A stretch of DNA of 64,000 nt. Source: Eledone cirrhosa. Lineage: Eukaryota. The position numbers and the translations under genes were made by a program. Under the pieces are notes generated by a model, which was not told the DNA's origin, made no database searches, and worked only from the letters and a program-made list of their open reading frames with translations. Of this stretch, positions 6,687 to 49,909 are shown piece by piece (positions within the stretch are counted from its first letter, which is position 1; each line of letters begins with the position of its first letter). Location of the stretch: contig OZ024740.1 of the NCBI GenBank assembly GCA_964016885.1, forward strand, positions 210,118,001 through 210,182,000, written 5' to 3'.

Positions 6687-6933
6687 CCAAAGATTAATAT
6701 GGTTCATTGATTACTCAATGAATAGAGTTTTACAATAGATTAAAGATTAAAAGCACTCAACAAAGAAATATTCCTGGAGTTTTAATATTATTCAAAATAT
6801 TAACAAATGAAGATATTCACATAATCAAAATATATGCATTATTATATATATTTAGAAGGTACTGTATTGGAATTCCAGTATTGGAATTGAACTATCAAGA
6901 CCGTAGAGGTATGTCATATATCAAATCTTATAT

Positions 6934-6997
6934 TTTATCTGACGAGGACGTACTGGAAAAAAACAACACAGTACCTTCGAAATATATATATAATAAA
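6934..6997 (+). ncRNA. Type I HHR in fold-back element 6686-7050
   Basis: TTTAT-CTGACGA-GGACGTACTG…CAGTACCTTC-GAAA-TATATATA-TA-ATAAA; arms 6786-6866 and 6968-7050. Confidence 0.8.
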
Positions 6998-7042
6998 GCA
7001 TATATTTTGATGATGTGACTATCTTCATTTGTTAATATTTTG

Positions 7043-25566: not shown

Positions 25567-25884
25567 GACGTAAAATAAGAAAATTATAAAAATTACTAAG
25601 ACAAAACCTATATATTTGCTAGCATAGGTATGCATCTGTATATATATGTTGGTAGATATACTAATTCTTTATATATATATATAACGAAGGAGTTGTGGTA
25701 AGGAACCAGACAGACCATAACGCACCAGAGTACACAATACTTAGGGTAGTAGAGTGGGTAATAGGAATATGTATGACCCCGACGGCAGAGCTCAAGCCGT
25801 TTCGACGGCTATTTGTGGACACTATTTGCGTCCAGAAATAGCCGTCGAAACGGCTTGAGCTCTGCCGTCGGGGTCATACATTTT

Positions 25885-25917
<33 letters not shown>

Positions 25918-25921
<4 letters not shown>

Positions 25922-26516
25922 GGAGCACTCCAGCCAGTATCTCAAAGAACTCTGTCATCCCATCAGGTGTAATGACTTGGGCTTTGGTGTTGGTGTAGAG
26001 CAGTGATATCAGGTCCACTATCTTCTTGGGGATTCCATAAGCCTGTAAGATCTTCTTCAGGCAGTGACGGTCCACAGAATCAAAGGCCTTCCTAGTAGAG
26101 TCTGTGCTGCAGTACGGGTCTGAGACTTGGACACTGACCAAGAAACTCACTCAGATTGTGGATGGGTGCTACACGAGAATGCTGAGGATGGCTCTGAACA
26201 TTAATCAGTATACACTGAGGATGAAAAACTCAGAGCTGTATGGGAGCCTCCCAAAAGTCAGCTCAAAAGTGACACAGAGGAGACTGAGGTTAACTGGACA
26301 TGCTCACCGTCATCCAGGGTTGACATTGCACTCGGTGTTCCTGTGGGAGCCCCTACATGGACACACTGGAAGAGGAAGACCAAGGTTAACATATGTTGAT
26401 GCCCTAAGGACAGACACTGGTCTGTTGGAGACGCAGGACATGGCAGCGATAATGAGGGACAGAGACCGCTGGAGAGAACTCGTCCATGGATATCGGGAAT
26501 TTTACCCGCCCTAGAT
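25918..26516 (+). mobile_element. RTE LINE with an inverted 5' segment, inserted in (TA)n
   Basis: 25918-26091 (-) encodes RT motifs KAFDSVD…AGVLQG; 26093-26514 (+) encodes LQYGSETWTLTK…GRGRPR…W and a stop. Confidence 0.88.
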
Positions 26517-26911: not shown

Positions 26912-27772
26912 ACACACACACGCACGCATATATATATATATGTGTGTGTGTATGTGTATGTGTGTAAGAGAGAGAGAAGTATCAGTGTTTGATTATGTCC
27001 AGTAACTTAGTGGTTCGTCACAAAGGGATCAACAAAATGATCAAACTAGAATAAAATACTCTTGCTGATACAAACAACTAAACCCCTTAAACCTTTCGTT
27101 ACCATACAATGAAGACTTGATAAATTTCTCATTAAGCTGGTGTTTGGAACATTACTTAACAAAAGTTCTGACATAATTATGACGGAAAGTTTTTAGATAA
27201 ATACTAGCAGAATGGCCCGGCGTTGCTCGGGATTCTAAACGTAGATTAGCATGTTTATCCCTCCTTTCGGAAACAGTACAGAGAAGTACGGAATACCTCG
27301 GCCTCGGGATGGTGTCTATATTTTGTGCTTATAAAAAAAATTCGTCGTAGATTACCAGGGGTTTAACTTAGTTGGGTGCCTGAGAGTAAAATGTTCAACC
27401 CACGAAAGCCAAGACGATAGGGTTAAGTAAAAAGGCATTCGACAAACCGAACATGTATTTGTTGTGCTATGGTACAATGAAAGCAATAGTCACAGAGCAG
27501 TAAGCATGTGGGACTGCAGTCGTGGAGAGTGGTGTGGTCTTACTCCTTTCAATGTGTCGTCGTATGTTCACCAATTGATGAAGAAGTCCTAATGAAAAGT
27601 GAAGTCGCCTTGGGTGAATAGGCAAATAATTTTCCATTACGATTTTTCAAAAGCATGTAATTACGTTCCCTCTCTTTTTTTGTTGTTGTTTTTGCTGCTG
27701 TTTATATTTTGTTTTTGTGTATGCAAAAATATCTGTACACGAATATATAATTATATATATATATCTATATTA

Positions 27773-27837
27773 TATTTTATCTGATGAAAGCGCACCATAA
27801 TTTGCTTTGGTGTCCTTGAAATATGTATAATGAAATA
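27773..27837 (+). ncRNA. Type I HHR
   Basis: TATTTTAT-CTGATGA-AAGCGCACCA…TGGTGTCCTT-GAAA-TATGTA-TA-ATGAAATA. Confidence 0.82.
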
Positions 27838-27966
27838 AATATGGTTTTATAAATATAGTTTCCATTTGTTAATATATTGTATTTTTACTCCAAAAATTTG
27901 TTGAGTGCTTTATATCAGTTATAAAAATATTTGCTTGTTGTATCCCAACAAATTAAATATAACTTC

Positions 27967-28604: not shown

Positions 28605-29586
28605 TCAAGTTATAAATTGGGTGTTGAGTTCTAGTCTATTATTGATTGGTGGTTGTGTTTTGTCTATAATTAGTGCTTCCTTAATTCTAAGATTGCCGAG
28701 GTTTCTTTCCTTAGTTTCTATCCTAACTGTTATGGTTTTGTGGGTGTTTTTGCATTTCACTAGGTGTTTCTTAAATGAGGAAGCGTTAGTATTGAGGTGT
28801 TCTTTTATTCTTATGTGGAGTAGTCTGGTGGTGCTACCTACGTAGAAGTTGCTGCATTTGTCGCACTCTAGTCTGTATACGACATAAACCTGGTGGCATA
28901 GGTCTGTGTTGTTGATGGGGCAGTTGGCTAGCCTGCAGCGGTTGTCATGTCTGGTGGAGTGTCTTTTGGTTAGCTGTCCGCGTAGAGAAGGTCCTGAGTG
29001 GGCCAGTTGGATATCTAGTCCCTCTCGTCTGATAGCACTGCGGATGGCTGTTGTTGTTTCATCACTGAAGTGTGGGACCTTCAGGAAGCAACAAGTGTTA
29101 GTGCCTCGGGTGTGCTGTCCTCTGTTCTTTCTGGCACGGTTTGTGGTGAATGTCATGTATCCGTTCAGTTTGAGTACTTCCAGGAAATGTGTGGTGTGTG
29201 TTCCTCGGTCTCTAGCGTCGGTGCATTTGTTCCGGATACGTGTTAGTTCGTTCCTTATGTATCCGAACTTAGCGCCGGCTGGGAGGGCCGATCTGAAATG
29301 TACGAACAGGTCCCTGCTGGCGGTTTTTTTTATAGAAGCAGGTGTGGATGTTGCATTCCTCTGTTACCCTGAGTTGGAAGTCCAGTAGGGATAGGGATCC
29401 GCGATCATCGGGGTGTTCCATGCTGAACTTTATACTGGCGTCCATGCTGGAGAATGTTGTGTATATTTTATCCGCCTCCTCACGCGATGATGTAAGGATG
29501 AGTATGTCATCTACATATCGGGTGAAGAAGGTATGGGAATGGCAGGTGTTGAGGGTTCGGCATTCTAGCTGGTTCAAATGCAGCAA
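28605..29586 (-). pseudogene. PLE reverse transcriptase C-terminus and GIY-YIG endonuclease, frameshifted
   Basis: FTRYVDDILIL, SIKFSME, SLSLLD; VVYRLECDKCSNFYVGSTTRLLHIRIKEH…IKEALII…QPPINN. Confidence 0.92.
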
Positions 29587-29859
29587 CTTCTACGTAGGTA
29601 GCACCACCAGACCACTCCACATAAGAATAAAAGAACACCTCAATACTAACGCTTCCTCATTTAAGAAACACCTAGTAAAATGCAAAAACACCCACAAAAC
29701 CATAACAGTTAGGATAGAAACTAAGGAAAGAAACCTCGGCAATCTTAGAATTAAGGAAGCACTAATTATAGACAAAACACAACCACCAATCAATAATAGA
29801 CTAGAACTCAACACCCAATTTATAACTTGATAGAGTCTAGGCCCATACTTACACCCCCT

Positions 29860-44871: not shown

Positions 44872-45455
44872 CCGCAGACATTTTAAAAGCAAAGACGAAC
44901 ATTTGTTAACCTGTAAAAGAGGCCTCGATTTTTTCTTCATACTTTTAGAAAACTTACAAACTGGGTAATTTTAAGCAGAGAATTTATACAGAGAATTTAG
45001 ACTTTCAAACAATTTACAGACGATTAGCAGATGTTCTGCAGATAAATCTGGTAGCTCTCACTTTCTTTATCTATTATACTTGAGGATTACTGTCCCCTTA
45101 AACCGACTATAGGGGTACCTCACTACTCACCACCATAGGCGCTGAGCTGGCCAGCTGCAGGTGTGAGCCTCGCGAGTTGGAATGGCTCTTCCAGCGCATT
45201 TCCCTTACCATTCTCCGGGGAAACGCCTTCTCCATCCTGTCCGCCGGGGCTATGGGGAGGCCAGCACGTGGGATCCCATTTGCTCACCATACGGAGAGAT
45301 GTGGAGGGCGAGAGAGATGAAGCCGATGACAGTGGGAGTTCGGCTCTTCCACGTTCGGACCATATCCTTGTGGTTTTGTTCATTAAGCAGTTAATGAGTC
45401 TGTTTCTGTATAGACTCAATTTTCCTTCTATTTTTACGTCTACTATATTTGTAAG

Positions 45456-45792
45456 CAAGGGCCTTGTTTCAGGGGGTACCAGGGAACAAGCCCCCCCCCC
45501 CACTTTTTCAAACGTCTATTTTTTTTTGTTTATTTGATATAATAAATTCTTTTTAAGCTTATTTTTTTTATATCTTAACTTCATTTATATAAAATTTAAT
45601 TAGCGTAAAATTTAATTAGCGTAAAATTTAATTAGCGTAAAATTTAATTACCGTAACATTTTACTTATGTGATAGGGTCCGGGAAAGGCACCATAAGCAA
45701 TACTAACATGCTCCTTTAAGAATCAACAAATGTTGGTTTGTCACCCCCCCCCCCCCCCACACACACACATTTTTAAGGCAAACGAGGCCCTG
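45456..45792. mobile_element. hAT MITE with an internal 16-bp tandem repeat
   Basis: TIR AGGGCC(T/C)…GTTT-like; 8-bp TSD TTTGTAAG; AAAATTTAATTAGCGT repeated about 4 times. Confidence 0.8.
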
Positions 45793-46645
45793 TTTGTAAG
45801 GATATAGTACATTCCCAATACTAGCTCTCTTTAAATTTATGTCGTCTGTTCAATCACCGTCAATGGCAGACTGGGAAAGTAGCGGTGCATTTGTGTTTGT
45901 TCAAAGGTTTAAGCAAAATCTGAGCTCAACAGTTTCATAAAACAACTAATGGTTTTATGTTTCAATGTATCATATACGCACAAACACAGACACACACAGT
46001 CATTTGCTCGTTATTTGTGTGTGTGTGTGTGAGAGTGTGTGTGTGAGTGAGTGTGAGTGTGTGTGTGTGTGAGAGAGAGGGTGTGTGCGTGTGTGTACGT
46101 GTGTACGTACGTTGGTGTACGTATGTGTGCACACTTAATATGGTTAGGCTGTACAATTTGCTGTCACATATTGCCAGGTTCGATCCCAATACGTCACACA
46201 CTCGATTAATGTCTTTAACCATAGCCGTCTCTCGACTCACGCTTTTTAAATGAAATTGTGTTGAGACAAACTGCAGAAGACCGTCGGGTGAATCGTAACT
46301 GTTCTTGAGCGTTAGACTTAACTCTTCACCCGGCGTAACACCACCGTATAGCTACCTTTAGCAGAGTTTACTCAATAAGGATAACTCGATGTCCTAAAGC
46401 CCCAGTGCAATAACTCATGTGTTATTGGGGTTTTCTATTTTACCAAACTTGACAGCCCTTTAATATAACATCGGGCTGCCGTTTCATCTCAAAATAGTCA
46501 ATAATAGATTTATTCAATGATAAATAACATATTTATCAAATATATTTACATGTAAAATACTTCAATACTGAAGGTATAGTCAAATTTATTATATATGAAT
46601 GTTTATTGGGACTTCAAATTCGGCCTGTAGCATTATATATATATA

Positions 46646-47171
46646 TTGGAATTTCGTATTTCTAAAGAAATACGGTATGTTTATAATAAACATTTAGAAC
46701 GCCGTAGCTATGCAAAAACACCCGCGGCTATTGCCGCCTGGTGGTGTCCATCAAAGGCAAGGGGGACAATTGTCGATGCGCATTTCGAACTGAACTGGTT
46801 CTCATCAAGATGATCCCTCCCGCTTTTGCCACTGTTGGACTTTGAAAACAGGCGAGAATATATGGTTTTCTCGTCTTCTGTAAATGAGGTAATTAATCTC
46901 ATTTGCATATGAAGCTGTGTAAGTTGGCTCAACTTATGATAGAAAACAATTAAAATTTAGCTTCAAGTATAGCTGTATACAGATATGGTTTGGAATTTCA
47001 TATTTCTAAAGAAATGCGGTATGTTTATAATAAACATTTAGAAAGCCGTAGCTATGCAAAAACAGCCGCGGCTATCGCCGCCTGGTGGTGTCCAGCAGAG
47101 GCAAGGGGGACAATTGTTGATGCGCATTTCGAACTGAACTAGTTCTCATCAGGAAGACCCCTCCCGCTCTT
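46646..47171 (-). mobile_element. Direct repeat (period 344 bp) with one HHR per copy; retrozyme- or pLTR-like
   Basis: 46646-46827 matches 46990-47171; (C/T)TGATGA-GAAC-(C/T)AGTTCA-GTTC-GAAA-TGCGCA-TC. Confidence 0.82.
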
Positions 47172-48002
47172 AGGAGTTATATTCCTAGAGCACCAGCGAA
47201 GAGTTAAACACCACGAATATTGGACGTTGTCGATAAAAGTGCCAATAAACGTCAAAACATAACGTAAAATATAGGCTGGTAAATATGGTATATAACAATA
47301 TAATAATTTAGCGTTAAAAAGCATGATGAAATATATATTGCCACGAAAAAAGCAATAAAAATTCTCGAATATGTGGTAGTTTCCACGAACAATTATTAGT
47401 TAGGTTCTAAGGAAAATTCCGCGAATAACCGGGACCGCGAATGCCGTTGTACACTATACATATATGGTAGAGGCCGAGTTTTGCTCATCATTGTTAAAAC
47501 TGGAATATTATCTTCACTGTCTACCCTTTCGTACGTAAGTCTACATACATGTATTATGCATGCATGTACGTGTGTATGTATGCATGCATGTATGTACATA
47601 TGCACGTATGTAAGTATTTATGTATGTATGCATATATGTATGTATGCATGTATGCATGCATGTATGTATGCATGTATGTATGTATTTATGCATGCATATA
47701 TATGTTTTACCATATATTATCTTTTATGCTTATCTAGGTTGATGATATTTTGAGTGTGAATGAATCACTAGTTCTGTGTGGGAAAACACTTCCAAAATTG
47801 GTTCAACATGTCGTTGTTATATACTAAATATACAAAAGCAGGACAACTAGTAGAACTTCTTTTTACCAAACCCATCCTTTCATTGAAGATTTTTACAAAG
47901 TTGTGCTAGTAAATATGTTAATAATTGTAACAGTTCCTCGAAGACCGAGTCTAAAAAATTCGTACATCTATATCTCTAATATACAAGTCCTTCTTTCACA
48001 CG

Positions 48003-49765: not shown

Positions 49766-49808
49766 GTCAAAGTTCTTTCGTCACACATTCTGTGACCTCT
49801 TCAGTGAC
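49766..49808 (-). ncRNA. Minimal type I HHR in fold-back element 49606-49916
   Basis: GTCA-CTGAAGA-G-GTCACA-GAATG-TGTGAC-GAAA-GAAC-TT-TGAC. Confidence 0.8.
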
Positions 49809-49909
49809 TGGGGATTCTTTTCTTTGTTTTTGTGCCTCTCCTTTGTTCTGTCCTACGCCATCTTGTTTTTGTGTGTGTTTCTTATTGGCAACATGACCCT
49901 CCCAAAGCA

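What the first reader, a model, noticed from the sequence alone, without database searches (positions are those of the whole stretch)
46646..47171. Tandem HHR pair predicts a 344-nt retrozyme-like RNA monomer
Seen: two direct repeats of about 180 bp, 344 bp apart, each with an HHR on the minus strand (predicted AUC sites at 47119 and 46775) and a palindromic ATGCGCAT stem III. There is no convincing ORF. Known: retrozymes yield monomeric or circular RNAs between tandem HHRs, and palindromic loop III allows dimeric folding. Caveats: the proximal stem I is weak and one core reads TTGATGA, so this copy may be dead.
Basis: partly seen in the sequence, partly recalled or inferred. Interest (0 to 1): 0.75.

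Follow-up and report, generated by a model that had tools for sequence, protein, structure and literature searches.

The report
Worn hammerhead retrozyme copy, Penelope footprints
This is one worn, 1.5-unit copy of a 344-base non-coding repeat that carries a hammerhead ribozyme motif and is scattered through this animal genome; the repeat was likely pasted into TA microsatellites by a Penelope-type retrotransposon enzyme, and this particular copy is predicted to be too damaged to release the 344-base RNA.

Summary
In detail: two ~182-bp direct repeats 344 bp apart, each with a type I hammerhead motif on the minus strand (C17 at 47119 and 46775). It is not a local duplication. The 28-nt core pattern matches 128 places in the genome against 0 for the control, and the family has roughly 800 or more copies. 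Copies are 5'-truncated at scattered points, end in two zones about 40 nt apart beside (TA)n, never at the cleavage site, and often carry an inverted arm. These are Penelope-like insertion footprints, so this is a new family of the known animal non-LTR retrozymes. The locus itself is probably dead: stem I pairs 3/6 and 4/6, one core has C3U, and its only promoter-like box lies between the ribozymes. Two extras: each unit carries a box matching the host's U6 upstream element, and a hairpin just before the insertion ends is shared with sister hammerhead families, one of them young, with identical back-to-back arrays. No RNA evidence and no autonomous partner were found.

The parts
46646..47171 (-). 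Whole insertion, about 1.5 head-to-tail units of a 344-bp non-coding repeat, 5'-truncated at 47171
   Evidence: relatives 82-89% identical
47091..47171 (-). Hammerhead 1 (type I): core CTGATGA 47152-47146, stem II, GAAA, ATGCGCAT helix III, C17 at 47119; proximal stem I 3/6; 5' arm of the outer stem lost by truncation
46747..46839 (-). Hammerhead 2 (type I): core TTGATGA (C3U) 46808-46802, C17 at 46775; proximal stem I 4/6; long outer stem present
46775..47118 (-). Predicted 344-nt monomer between the two cleavage sites; folds better than shuffles (z -3.3 linear, -3.1 circular)
46857..46909 (-). U6-like promoter candidate: 15-nt octamer-containing box at 46909-46895 and weak TATA-like word at 46865-46857; predicted +1 near 46834
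   Evidence: 0 of 300 shuffles reach the score; function untested
47000..47043 (-). Double-hairpin signal, first copy (first hairpin shared with sister hammerhead families)
46656..46699 (-). Double-hairpin signal, second copy; the insertion ends 53 nt after its start, in the first of the family's two end zones
46634..46646 (.). (TA)n run at the element's 3' end, the likely insertion target
47172..47466 (.). Neighbouring MITE-like repeat (terminal inverted repeats, TA flanks); about 22 bp of its end are missing where the element joins, so it is the likely older target and not part of the element

Best explanation
The locus is a decayed, 5'-truncated 1.5-unit copy of a dispersed, ORF-less 342-344-bp hammerhead repeat family (an animal non-LTR retrozyme) that was likely copied into (TA)n sites by the reverse transcriptase-endonuclease of a Penelope-like element, probably from a self-cleaved circular RNA. 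Steps: (1) shown: many dispersed copies with head-to-tail units, a kept hammerhead core and no ORF. (2) Inferred: a source copy was transcribed, perhaps from the unit's own U6-like box, and the hammerheads cut out a monomer, probably as a dimer through the palindromic helix III. (3) Inferred: the monomer was ligated to a circle. (4) Inferred from shown end positions: a Penelope-type enzyme bound near a conserved hairpin, nicked (TA)n and began reverse transcription inside the unit at one of two sites about 40 nt apart, running through the cleavage site up to twice and sometimes priming on both target strands. (5) Shown: the two halves here have since diverged by 7%, partly by CpG-type changes that break stem I and C3. 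Predicted: this copy no longer releases a 344-nt RNA.
For: Copies: 128 exact core matches vs 0 control; 8 of 49 unselected cores match that pattern, which gives about 800; 3529 and 4429 first-look candidates, 40 scored each. Ends in 67 distinct loci: 60 3' ends in two zones (38 at 120-150 and 22 at 160-190 nt after the cleavage site; zones drawn after seeing the data), 0 within 15 nt of the cleavage site, 44 beside (TA)n vs 128 of 1340 random flank windows, 23 with an inverted arm, 12 of whose outer ends fall in the same zones. This matches internal RT initiation at two sites, AT-rich nicking and extension of both strands shown for the anole PLE (PMC11167929) and the tandem/inverted, (TA)n-biased PLE insertions (PMC8557442). 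No shared unique sequence upstream in 57 loci. One copy runs 2.14 units without a seam. Halves of one locus are closer than between loci in 29 of 31 pairs. Helices: 87.6% of cells paired vs 26-43% when slid; the C-G to G-C swap at pair 1.1/2.1 marks one subfamily. RT+GIY-YIG PLEs with 844-1096-aa frames are in the genome. A sister 311-bp hammerhead family shares the hairpin and forms back-to-back arrays, 8 of 8 units identical in one locus.
Against: No RNA, cleavage or circle was observed. No autonomous partner: 0 of 50 GIY-YIG loci carry the unit as their terminal repeat, and the hairpin occurs in 2 of them only inside separate insertions; only 50 of 10,596 candidates were looked at. Covariation is modest (14 both-side cells vs 8.0 shuffled, 13/500; number of such pairs 234/500) and copies are related. 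Long arrays of this family were not found: 2 dispersed loci genome-wide have two exact octamer 13-mers at unit spacing. No A>G editing scar (A>G 15.7 vs T>C 22.7 per 1000). Rfam does not score even an intact copy. A T4-T5 run 57 nt after the cleavage site (52 of 69 sites) could stop Pol III before a full unit is made. In the anole PLE, hammerhead cleavage was not needed for insertion in vitro.
Confidence: 0.78

Rival explanations
1. Same family and same Penelope-type enzyme, but the template was an uncleaved linear multimeric transcript; the hammerhead and a circle play no part in mobilisation.
For: Hammerhead mutants do not affect insertion by the anole PLE in vitro (PMC11167929). Internal initiation needs no circle. 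Copies longer than about 2.1 units were not found.
Against: A linear template needs a genomic array longer than its products, and none was seen for this family. The longest copies start at different points, one beyond two units. The sister family's identical arrays of up to 10 units per arm are what rolling on a circle would give. Pair 1.1/2.1 is kept through a double change in one subfamily.
Confidence: 0.3
2. The repeat is the pseudo-LTR of an autonomous Penelope-like element, and the copies are its truncated ends.
For: PLE pLTRs carry type I hammerheads (PMC4209133), and Xenopus retrozymes are homologous to pLTRs (bioRxiv 10.64898/2026.07.22.740005). The end pattern is that of PLEs.
Against: Copies longer than one unit continue into another unit, not into a shared ORF; no pair of 57 loci shares its upstream flank. 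0 of 50 GIY-YIG loci carry the unit. PLE fragments near 3 loci (L028, L175, L189) are not joined to the unit as an ORF end. The ribozyme is canonical, whereas one resident PLE family carries a minimal one.
Confidence: 0.08
3. This locus is an active source: read-through transcription and dimer folding through ATGCGCAT release a 344-nt RNA that circularises.
For: Both GAAA/UC elements, stem II and the palindrome are intact. The unit folds better than shuffles. Rare core variants keep some activity (PMC7151607 passages).
Against: Stem I 3/6 with a C.A mismatch next to the cleavage site in ribozyme 1; 4/6 plus C3U in ribozyme 2; fold penalties of 12.4 and 8.2 kcal/mol. Both must cut. The own promoter-like box lies downstream of ribozyme 1. 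In Xenopus 8 of 9 predicted dimers did not cleave.
Confidence: 0.1
4. A DNA-level local duplication or satellite with a chance hammerhead-like word.
For: The two halves are closer to each other than to other loci.
Against: Dispersed copies on many contigs with the same junction-free unit order and fixed ends.
Confidence: 0.02

Closest known systems
Metazoan non-LTR retrozymes (Cervera and de la Pena 2020, PMC7229834: passages and Discussion read; review PMC7761336: passages; Li, Clavereau and Pollet, bioRxiv 10.64898/2026.07.22.740005: parts 1-3 of 5)
   Same: Canonical type I hammerhead in head-to-tail units of 150-400 bp (mussel 350-390), GC below 45% (0.37-0.40 here), no ORF, a structured predicted circle, coexistence with autonomous PLEs.
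   Different: This family forms no long arrays (at most about 2.1 units seen). Units carry a box like the host U6 upstream element, whereas the review says retrozymes do not seem to harbour promoters. Copies show two fixed internal ends and a hairpin shared across families, which the parts read do not describe. Expression and cleavage are untested here.
Penelope-like elements, EN+ clades (Frangieh et al. 2024, PMC11167929: main text read; Craig et al. 2021, PMC8557442: passages; Cervera and de la Pena 2014, PMC4209133: passages)
   Same: Two internal start sites about 40 nt apart (the 'tail'), AT-rich or (TA)n targets, scattered 5' truncation, inverted arms, a hammerhead upstream of the start sites.
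   Different: No RT or GIY-YIG ORF; canonical rather than minimal hammerhead; no sequence link to any of the 50 resident PLE loci tested.
Newt satellite 2 (snRNA-type promoter with octamer; recalled from memory, paper not held)
   Same: About 330-bp hammerhead repeat with palindromic helix III and, as recalled, an internal snRNA-type promoter.
   Different: Dispersed short insertions instead of arrays; the box here matches host U6 genes, not U1/U2 genes.

Membership tests
Metazoan non-LTR retrozyme | Type I hammerhead core with helices I, II and short palindromic III | tested here: met
   Family level: 20 of 45 and 21 of 30 complete ribozymes pass the core+stem test; 87.6% of cells paired. The two window copies fail it.
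Metazoan non-LTR retrozyme | Head-to-tail units of 150-400 bp with at least two ribozymes | tested here: met
   344-bp period, two ribozymes; 17 of 57 loci cross two cleavage sites (29 of the 57 were found with a dimer query).
Metazoan non-LTR retrozyme | No protein-coding capacity, GC below 45% | tested here: met
   Longest ATG ORF 66 aa, no Pfam match; GC 0.37-0.40. PBS/PPT motifs were not searched for.
Metazoan non-LTR retrozyme | Multicopy, dispersed, with resident autonomous PLEs | tested here: met
Metazoan non-LTR retrozyme | Self-cleavage and unit-length circular RNA in vivo | not testable with these tools
   No RNA holder listed; needs bench work.
'Active' retrozyme in the sense of Li et al. 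(two consecutive complete ribozymes) | Both ribozymes of the locus complete | tested here: not met
   Stem I 3/6; stem I 4/6 plus C3U. My own test, not their rnabob descriptor.
Autonomous Penelope-like element | RT + GIY-YIG ORF joined to the repeat as pseudo-LTR | tested here: not met
   50 of 10,596 GIY-YIG candidates examined.
Penelope-mobilised sequence | Two internal 3' ends about 30-40 nt apart, AT-rich target, inverted arms, 5' truncation | tested here: met
   60 of 67 ends in two zones, 44 of 67 at (TA)n, 23 of 67 with an inverted arm.
Penelope-mobilised sequence | A 3' signal shared with an identified autonomous partner | tested here: inconclusive
   Signal shared with other hammerhead repeats but not found at the ORF ends of 50 PLE loci.
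Rfam hammerhead families | Score at the gathering threshold | tested here: not met
   No match in the window region; 13.7 bits vs 48.5 for Hammerhead_3 on an intact copy.
U6-type (type 3 Pol III) promoter | Host U6 upstream box plus TATA at U6 spacing | tested here: inconclusive
   Box matches (14 of 15 letters to one U6 locus; 0 of 300 shuffles reach the score), but spacing is 43-44 vs 46-48, the window's TATA is weak, the model rests on 3 U6 loci, and 3 of 11 distinct U6 upstream regions shown lack the box.

The most novel reading that the evidence does not exclude
This genome holds a guild of hammerhead retrozymes that carry their own U6-type promoter and share one short RNA hairpin that docks a Penelope-type reverse transcriptase on the circle and sets two fixed start sites: a SINE-like recognition signal for circular RNA templates. 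The family here is an older member, and a sister 311-bp family with identical back-to-back arrays was copied very recently. That would make the long-proposed circRNA-to-genome step of animal retrozymes directly testable with defined parts.
Probability: 0.4. Interest if true: 0.68.

Novelty: new member of a known kind. Interest (0 to 1): 0.42.

Why it matters
The locus alone is ordinary: one worn copy among hundreds. The family matters because the retrozyme papers read here propose, but do not show, that Penelope-like enzymes copy animal retrozymes from circles, and a review says these elements seem to lack promoters. Here the copies carry the two-site internal-start footprint measured for a purified PLE, a hairpin shared across otherwise unalignable hammerhead repeats (25,044 pattern matches vs 1 control), and a box like the host's U6 element. 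These give concrete parts to test. I found no description of a cephalopod-type retrozyme in the held papers (searches; supplements not seen, and those of PMC7229834 and the bioRxiv preprint could list one).

Tried and rejected
Rfam: the whole-window scan listed only microsatellite-driven matches among the 150 of 234 shown; the regional scans gave no hammerhead. RNA: no RNA holder listed; the two coded runs are contigs of one sample and look genomic (flank covered without differences), so they say nothing on expression. U1/U2-type promoter: a PSE-like matrix from 12 U1/U2 upstream regions finds no site in the unit (best 1.6 on the sense strand vs shuffled mean 3.3), and 1 of 12 has an octamer upstream; rejected. 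Editing scars: no A>G excess. Autonomous partner: none among 50 GIY-YIG loci by blastn and nhmmer or among 30 hairpin-pattern loci by tblastn. Young copies of this family: none; closest pair between loci 5.1%, median 15.1% of 4102 pairs. Fixed 5' start near unit position 232 (an exact linear dimer): considered from three long copies, rejected because L177 runs past it. Using inverted arms to infer templates of three units: dropped, since the arms may be primed separately. Target-site duplication at this locus: none seen by eye; the junction removes the MITE end. The newt satellite 2 promoter paper was not found. Rows left out of counts: L023, L038, L050 (duplicates of other loci) and, L003 (the reference unit); the 20 C459 matches are a 26-bp satellite. 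Prokaryote, phage and plasmid collections were not searched, as the family is an animal repeat.

Full report
OBSERVATION. The repeat pair is real: 46634-46827 and 46978-47171, 91% alike, 344 bases apart. On the minus strand each copy reads stem I 5' arm, CTGATGA (47152) or TTGATGA (46808), a 4-bp stem II with a 7-nt loop, GAAA, TGCGCA, TC, stem I 3' arm; C17 lies at 47119 and 46775. The core letters follow the consensus quoted in PMC7151607 (passages). There is no ORF above 66 aa and that one has no Pfam match. Rfam finds no hammerhead here and scores an intact sister copy far below threshold.

THE FAMILY. The window lies in a 3.0-Gb, microsatellite-rich animal genome; an octopus-like host is my inference and that of earlier notes, not tested. 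A DNA search gave 3529 candidates, 40 scored, 52 matches. A 28-nt core pattern has 128 exact matches and its control 0. Eight of 49 cores not selected on that pattern match it, so about 800 ribozyme-bearing copies is a rough lower estimate. In sister copies proximal stem I is a perfect 6-bp helix inside a long outer stem. On 41 ribozymes 87.6% of cells pair, against 26-43% for slid controls; both-side changes are 14 against 8.0 in shuffles (13/500), but the number of such pairs is not above shuffles (234/500). One subfamily swaps pair 1.1/2.1 from C-G to G-C, and helix III occurs as a 6-nt or an 8-nt palindrome, the arrangement that allows dimer folding (PMC4209133, passages). Natural monomers fold better than shuffles as circles (z -3.1 here, -4.8 to -6.1 in three others; 40 shuffles each).

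INSERTION ANATOMY. Of 67 distinct loci (found by dimer queries or the core pattern; three duplicates and the reference locus left out), 38 end 120-150 nt and 22 end 160-190 nt after the cleavage site, none within 15 nt of it; 44 end beside (TA)n against 128 of 1340 random flank windows; 23 have an inverted arm and 12 of those arms end in the same two zones; 5' starts are scattered. The zones were drawn after seeing the data. The anole PLE protein nicks AT-rich DNA on both strands and starts reverse transcription at two internal sites that bound the 30-40-bp 'tail' (PMC11167929, main text); PLE insertions favour microsatellites and form tandem/inverted structures (PMC8557442, passages). No two of 57 loci share their upstream flank, so copies run into a further unit and not into an ORF. 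The longest seamless copy is 2.14 units, and only two dispersed loci have two exact octamer words at unit spacing. Halves of a locus are closer than between loci in 29 of 31 pairs, as expected if both were copied from one RNA. The closest pair between loci differs by 5.1%, so the sampled family is not young.

THIS LOCUS. It ends 53 nt after the shared hairpin at the TA run (46646), in the first end zone, and its 5' end replaces about 22 bp of a MITE-like repeat. Its halves differ at 13 of 182 columns. Ribozyme 1 has stem I 3/6 with a mismatch next to the cleavage site; ribozyme 2 has 4/6 and C3U. Forcing the hammerhead fold costs 12.4 and 8.2 kcal/mol against 1.6-2.4 in four intact copies I chose. 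C3G and G8C abolish cleavage in the PLE ribozyme; that C3U lowers it is from my own knowledge. Both ribozymes must cut to free the 344-nt RNA, so this copy is probably not a source. There is no RNA evidence either way.

PROMOTER-LIKE BOX. I noticed an octamer in the unit (intact in 46 of 57 units) and found no U1/U2-type match. Earlier notes on other families of this genome pointed to U6. Tested here: three independent U6 loci have a TATGC(A/T)AAT box at -77 to -79 and TATA at about -30; the unit has a 15-nt box matching one of them at 14 letters, followed by a TATA-like word; 0 of 300 shuffles reach the score. Against: spacing 43-44 instead of 46-48, a weak TATA in this copy, 3 of 11 distinct U6 upstream regions without the box, and a T4-T5 run 57 nt after the cleavage site (52 of 69 sites) that could end Pol III transcription, although the host U6 genes end in T5-T10. 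The predicted start (about 46834) falls at the 5' arm of the ribozyme's outer stem. At this locus the box lies downstream of ribozyme 1 and could not give the monomer. Five of the copies examined (L002, L020, L029, L176, L177) have a box position upstream of two ribozymes. A review says retrozymes do not seem to harbour promoters (PMC7761336, passage); an snRNA-type promoter in newt satellite 2 is recalled, the paper was not held.

SHARED HAIRPIN. A 20-letter gapped pattern for it has 25,044 matches against 1 control; the first 100 listed are mostly back-to-back arrays of a 310/311-bp unit, with 8 of 8 units identical in one locus, and these too show a short and a long end before (TA)n (by eye on 13 loci). 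This suggests a common recognition signal and recent activity of the copying machinery. The genome does hold PLEs with long RT+GIY-YIG frames, none with this unit. An editing scar reported in a note for another family is absent here.

MECHANISM AND ODDS. Retrozyme family mobilised by a Penelope-type enzyme: 0.78 as a whole; within it a circular template is somewhat more likely than an uncleaved linear multimer (rival, 0.3). Pseudo-LTR of an autonomous PLE: 0.08. This locus as an active source: 0.1. Shown: copies, ends, helices, decay. Inferred: transcription, cleavage, circularisation, identity of the enzyme.

COMPARISON AND NOVELTY. It meets the sequence-level features of metazoan non-LTR retrozymes (PMC7229834, passages and Discussion; bioRxiv 10.64898/2026.07.22.740005, parts 1-3 of 5), whose PLE link is proposed from co-occurrence and pLTR homology. 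It is a new member of that kind. The held papers found show no cephalopod-type retrozyme in the listings and passages I saw; supplements were not seen. The scan has noted such elements, Penelope footprints and the U6-like box in other families of this genome and in other genomes; no note matched this sequence. Interest 0.42: the locus is ordinary, while the family adds testable parts for an open step in the retrozyme life cycle.

Noticed in passing
L013:2190-3452; L221-L239, L242-L243, L246-L248 (G000:C1:1239759-1244382 and many more): A young 310/311-bp hammerhead repeat in back-to-back arrays (for example 6 units on one strand and 10 on the other; 8 of 8 units identical in L235). It shares a 41-nt hairpin (85%) with this family and also shows a short and a long end before (TA)n. 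It is the best substrate for expression tests.
   Followed up: partly
L062:2477-2885; L240, L241, L244, L245, L249, L250; L028:1050-1360; L066:510-563: At least one further hammerhead repeat family with the same hairpin at the same distance behind the ribozyme and two end classes.
   Followed up: partly
G000:C459 (L113:1478-2609): A 26-bp minisatellite of about 33 copies made from the octamer box of this unit, inside a decayed copy of the family.
   Followed up: no
window 47172-47466: MITE-like repeat with terminal inverted repeats and TA flanks, 3106 first-look candidates, 77-84% identity among 39 scored relatives.
   Followed up: partly
window 28605-29830: Penelope-like fragment as an inverted pair with a C-terminal GIY-YIG domain (Pfam E 2.7e-6); related to L100, which has a hammerhead-like motif 408 nt after its ORF.
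   Followed up: partly
window about 49770-49820, minus strand: Another hammerhead-like motif (CTGAAGA, 5-bp stem II, GAAA) in a repeat shared with L070, L103, L104, next to sequence like the 3' region of the L094/L095/L101/L105 PLE family.
   Followed up: no
window about 6925-7000 and 27765-27845, plus strand: Two related AT-rich hammerhead-like motifs with an oversized stem II.
   Followed up: no
L091, L092, L093: Open frames of 938, 844 and 1096 aa with RT and a Cys-rich linker before GIY-YIG (Neptune-like by the linker description in PMC8557442; clade not tested by a tree): candidate intact PLEs.
   Followed up: partly
L133-L152, L196-L220: Host snRNA promoters: U1/U2 share a TCAGT-containing box near -57, whereas U6 genes have an octamer-type box at -77 to -79 and TATA at -30.
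   Followed up: partly
window 25809-26514: LINE-like (RTE-type by eye) coding fragments; the one stretch scanned had no Pfam match.
   Followed up: no
window 45123-45515, minus strand: GC-rich 130-aa open frame with a below-cutoff Pfam match (UL135, 20.5 vs 27 bits), probably low-complexity noise.
   Followed up: no
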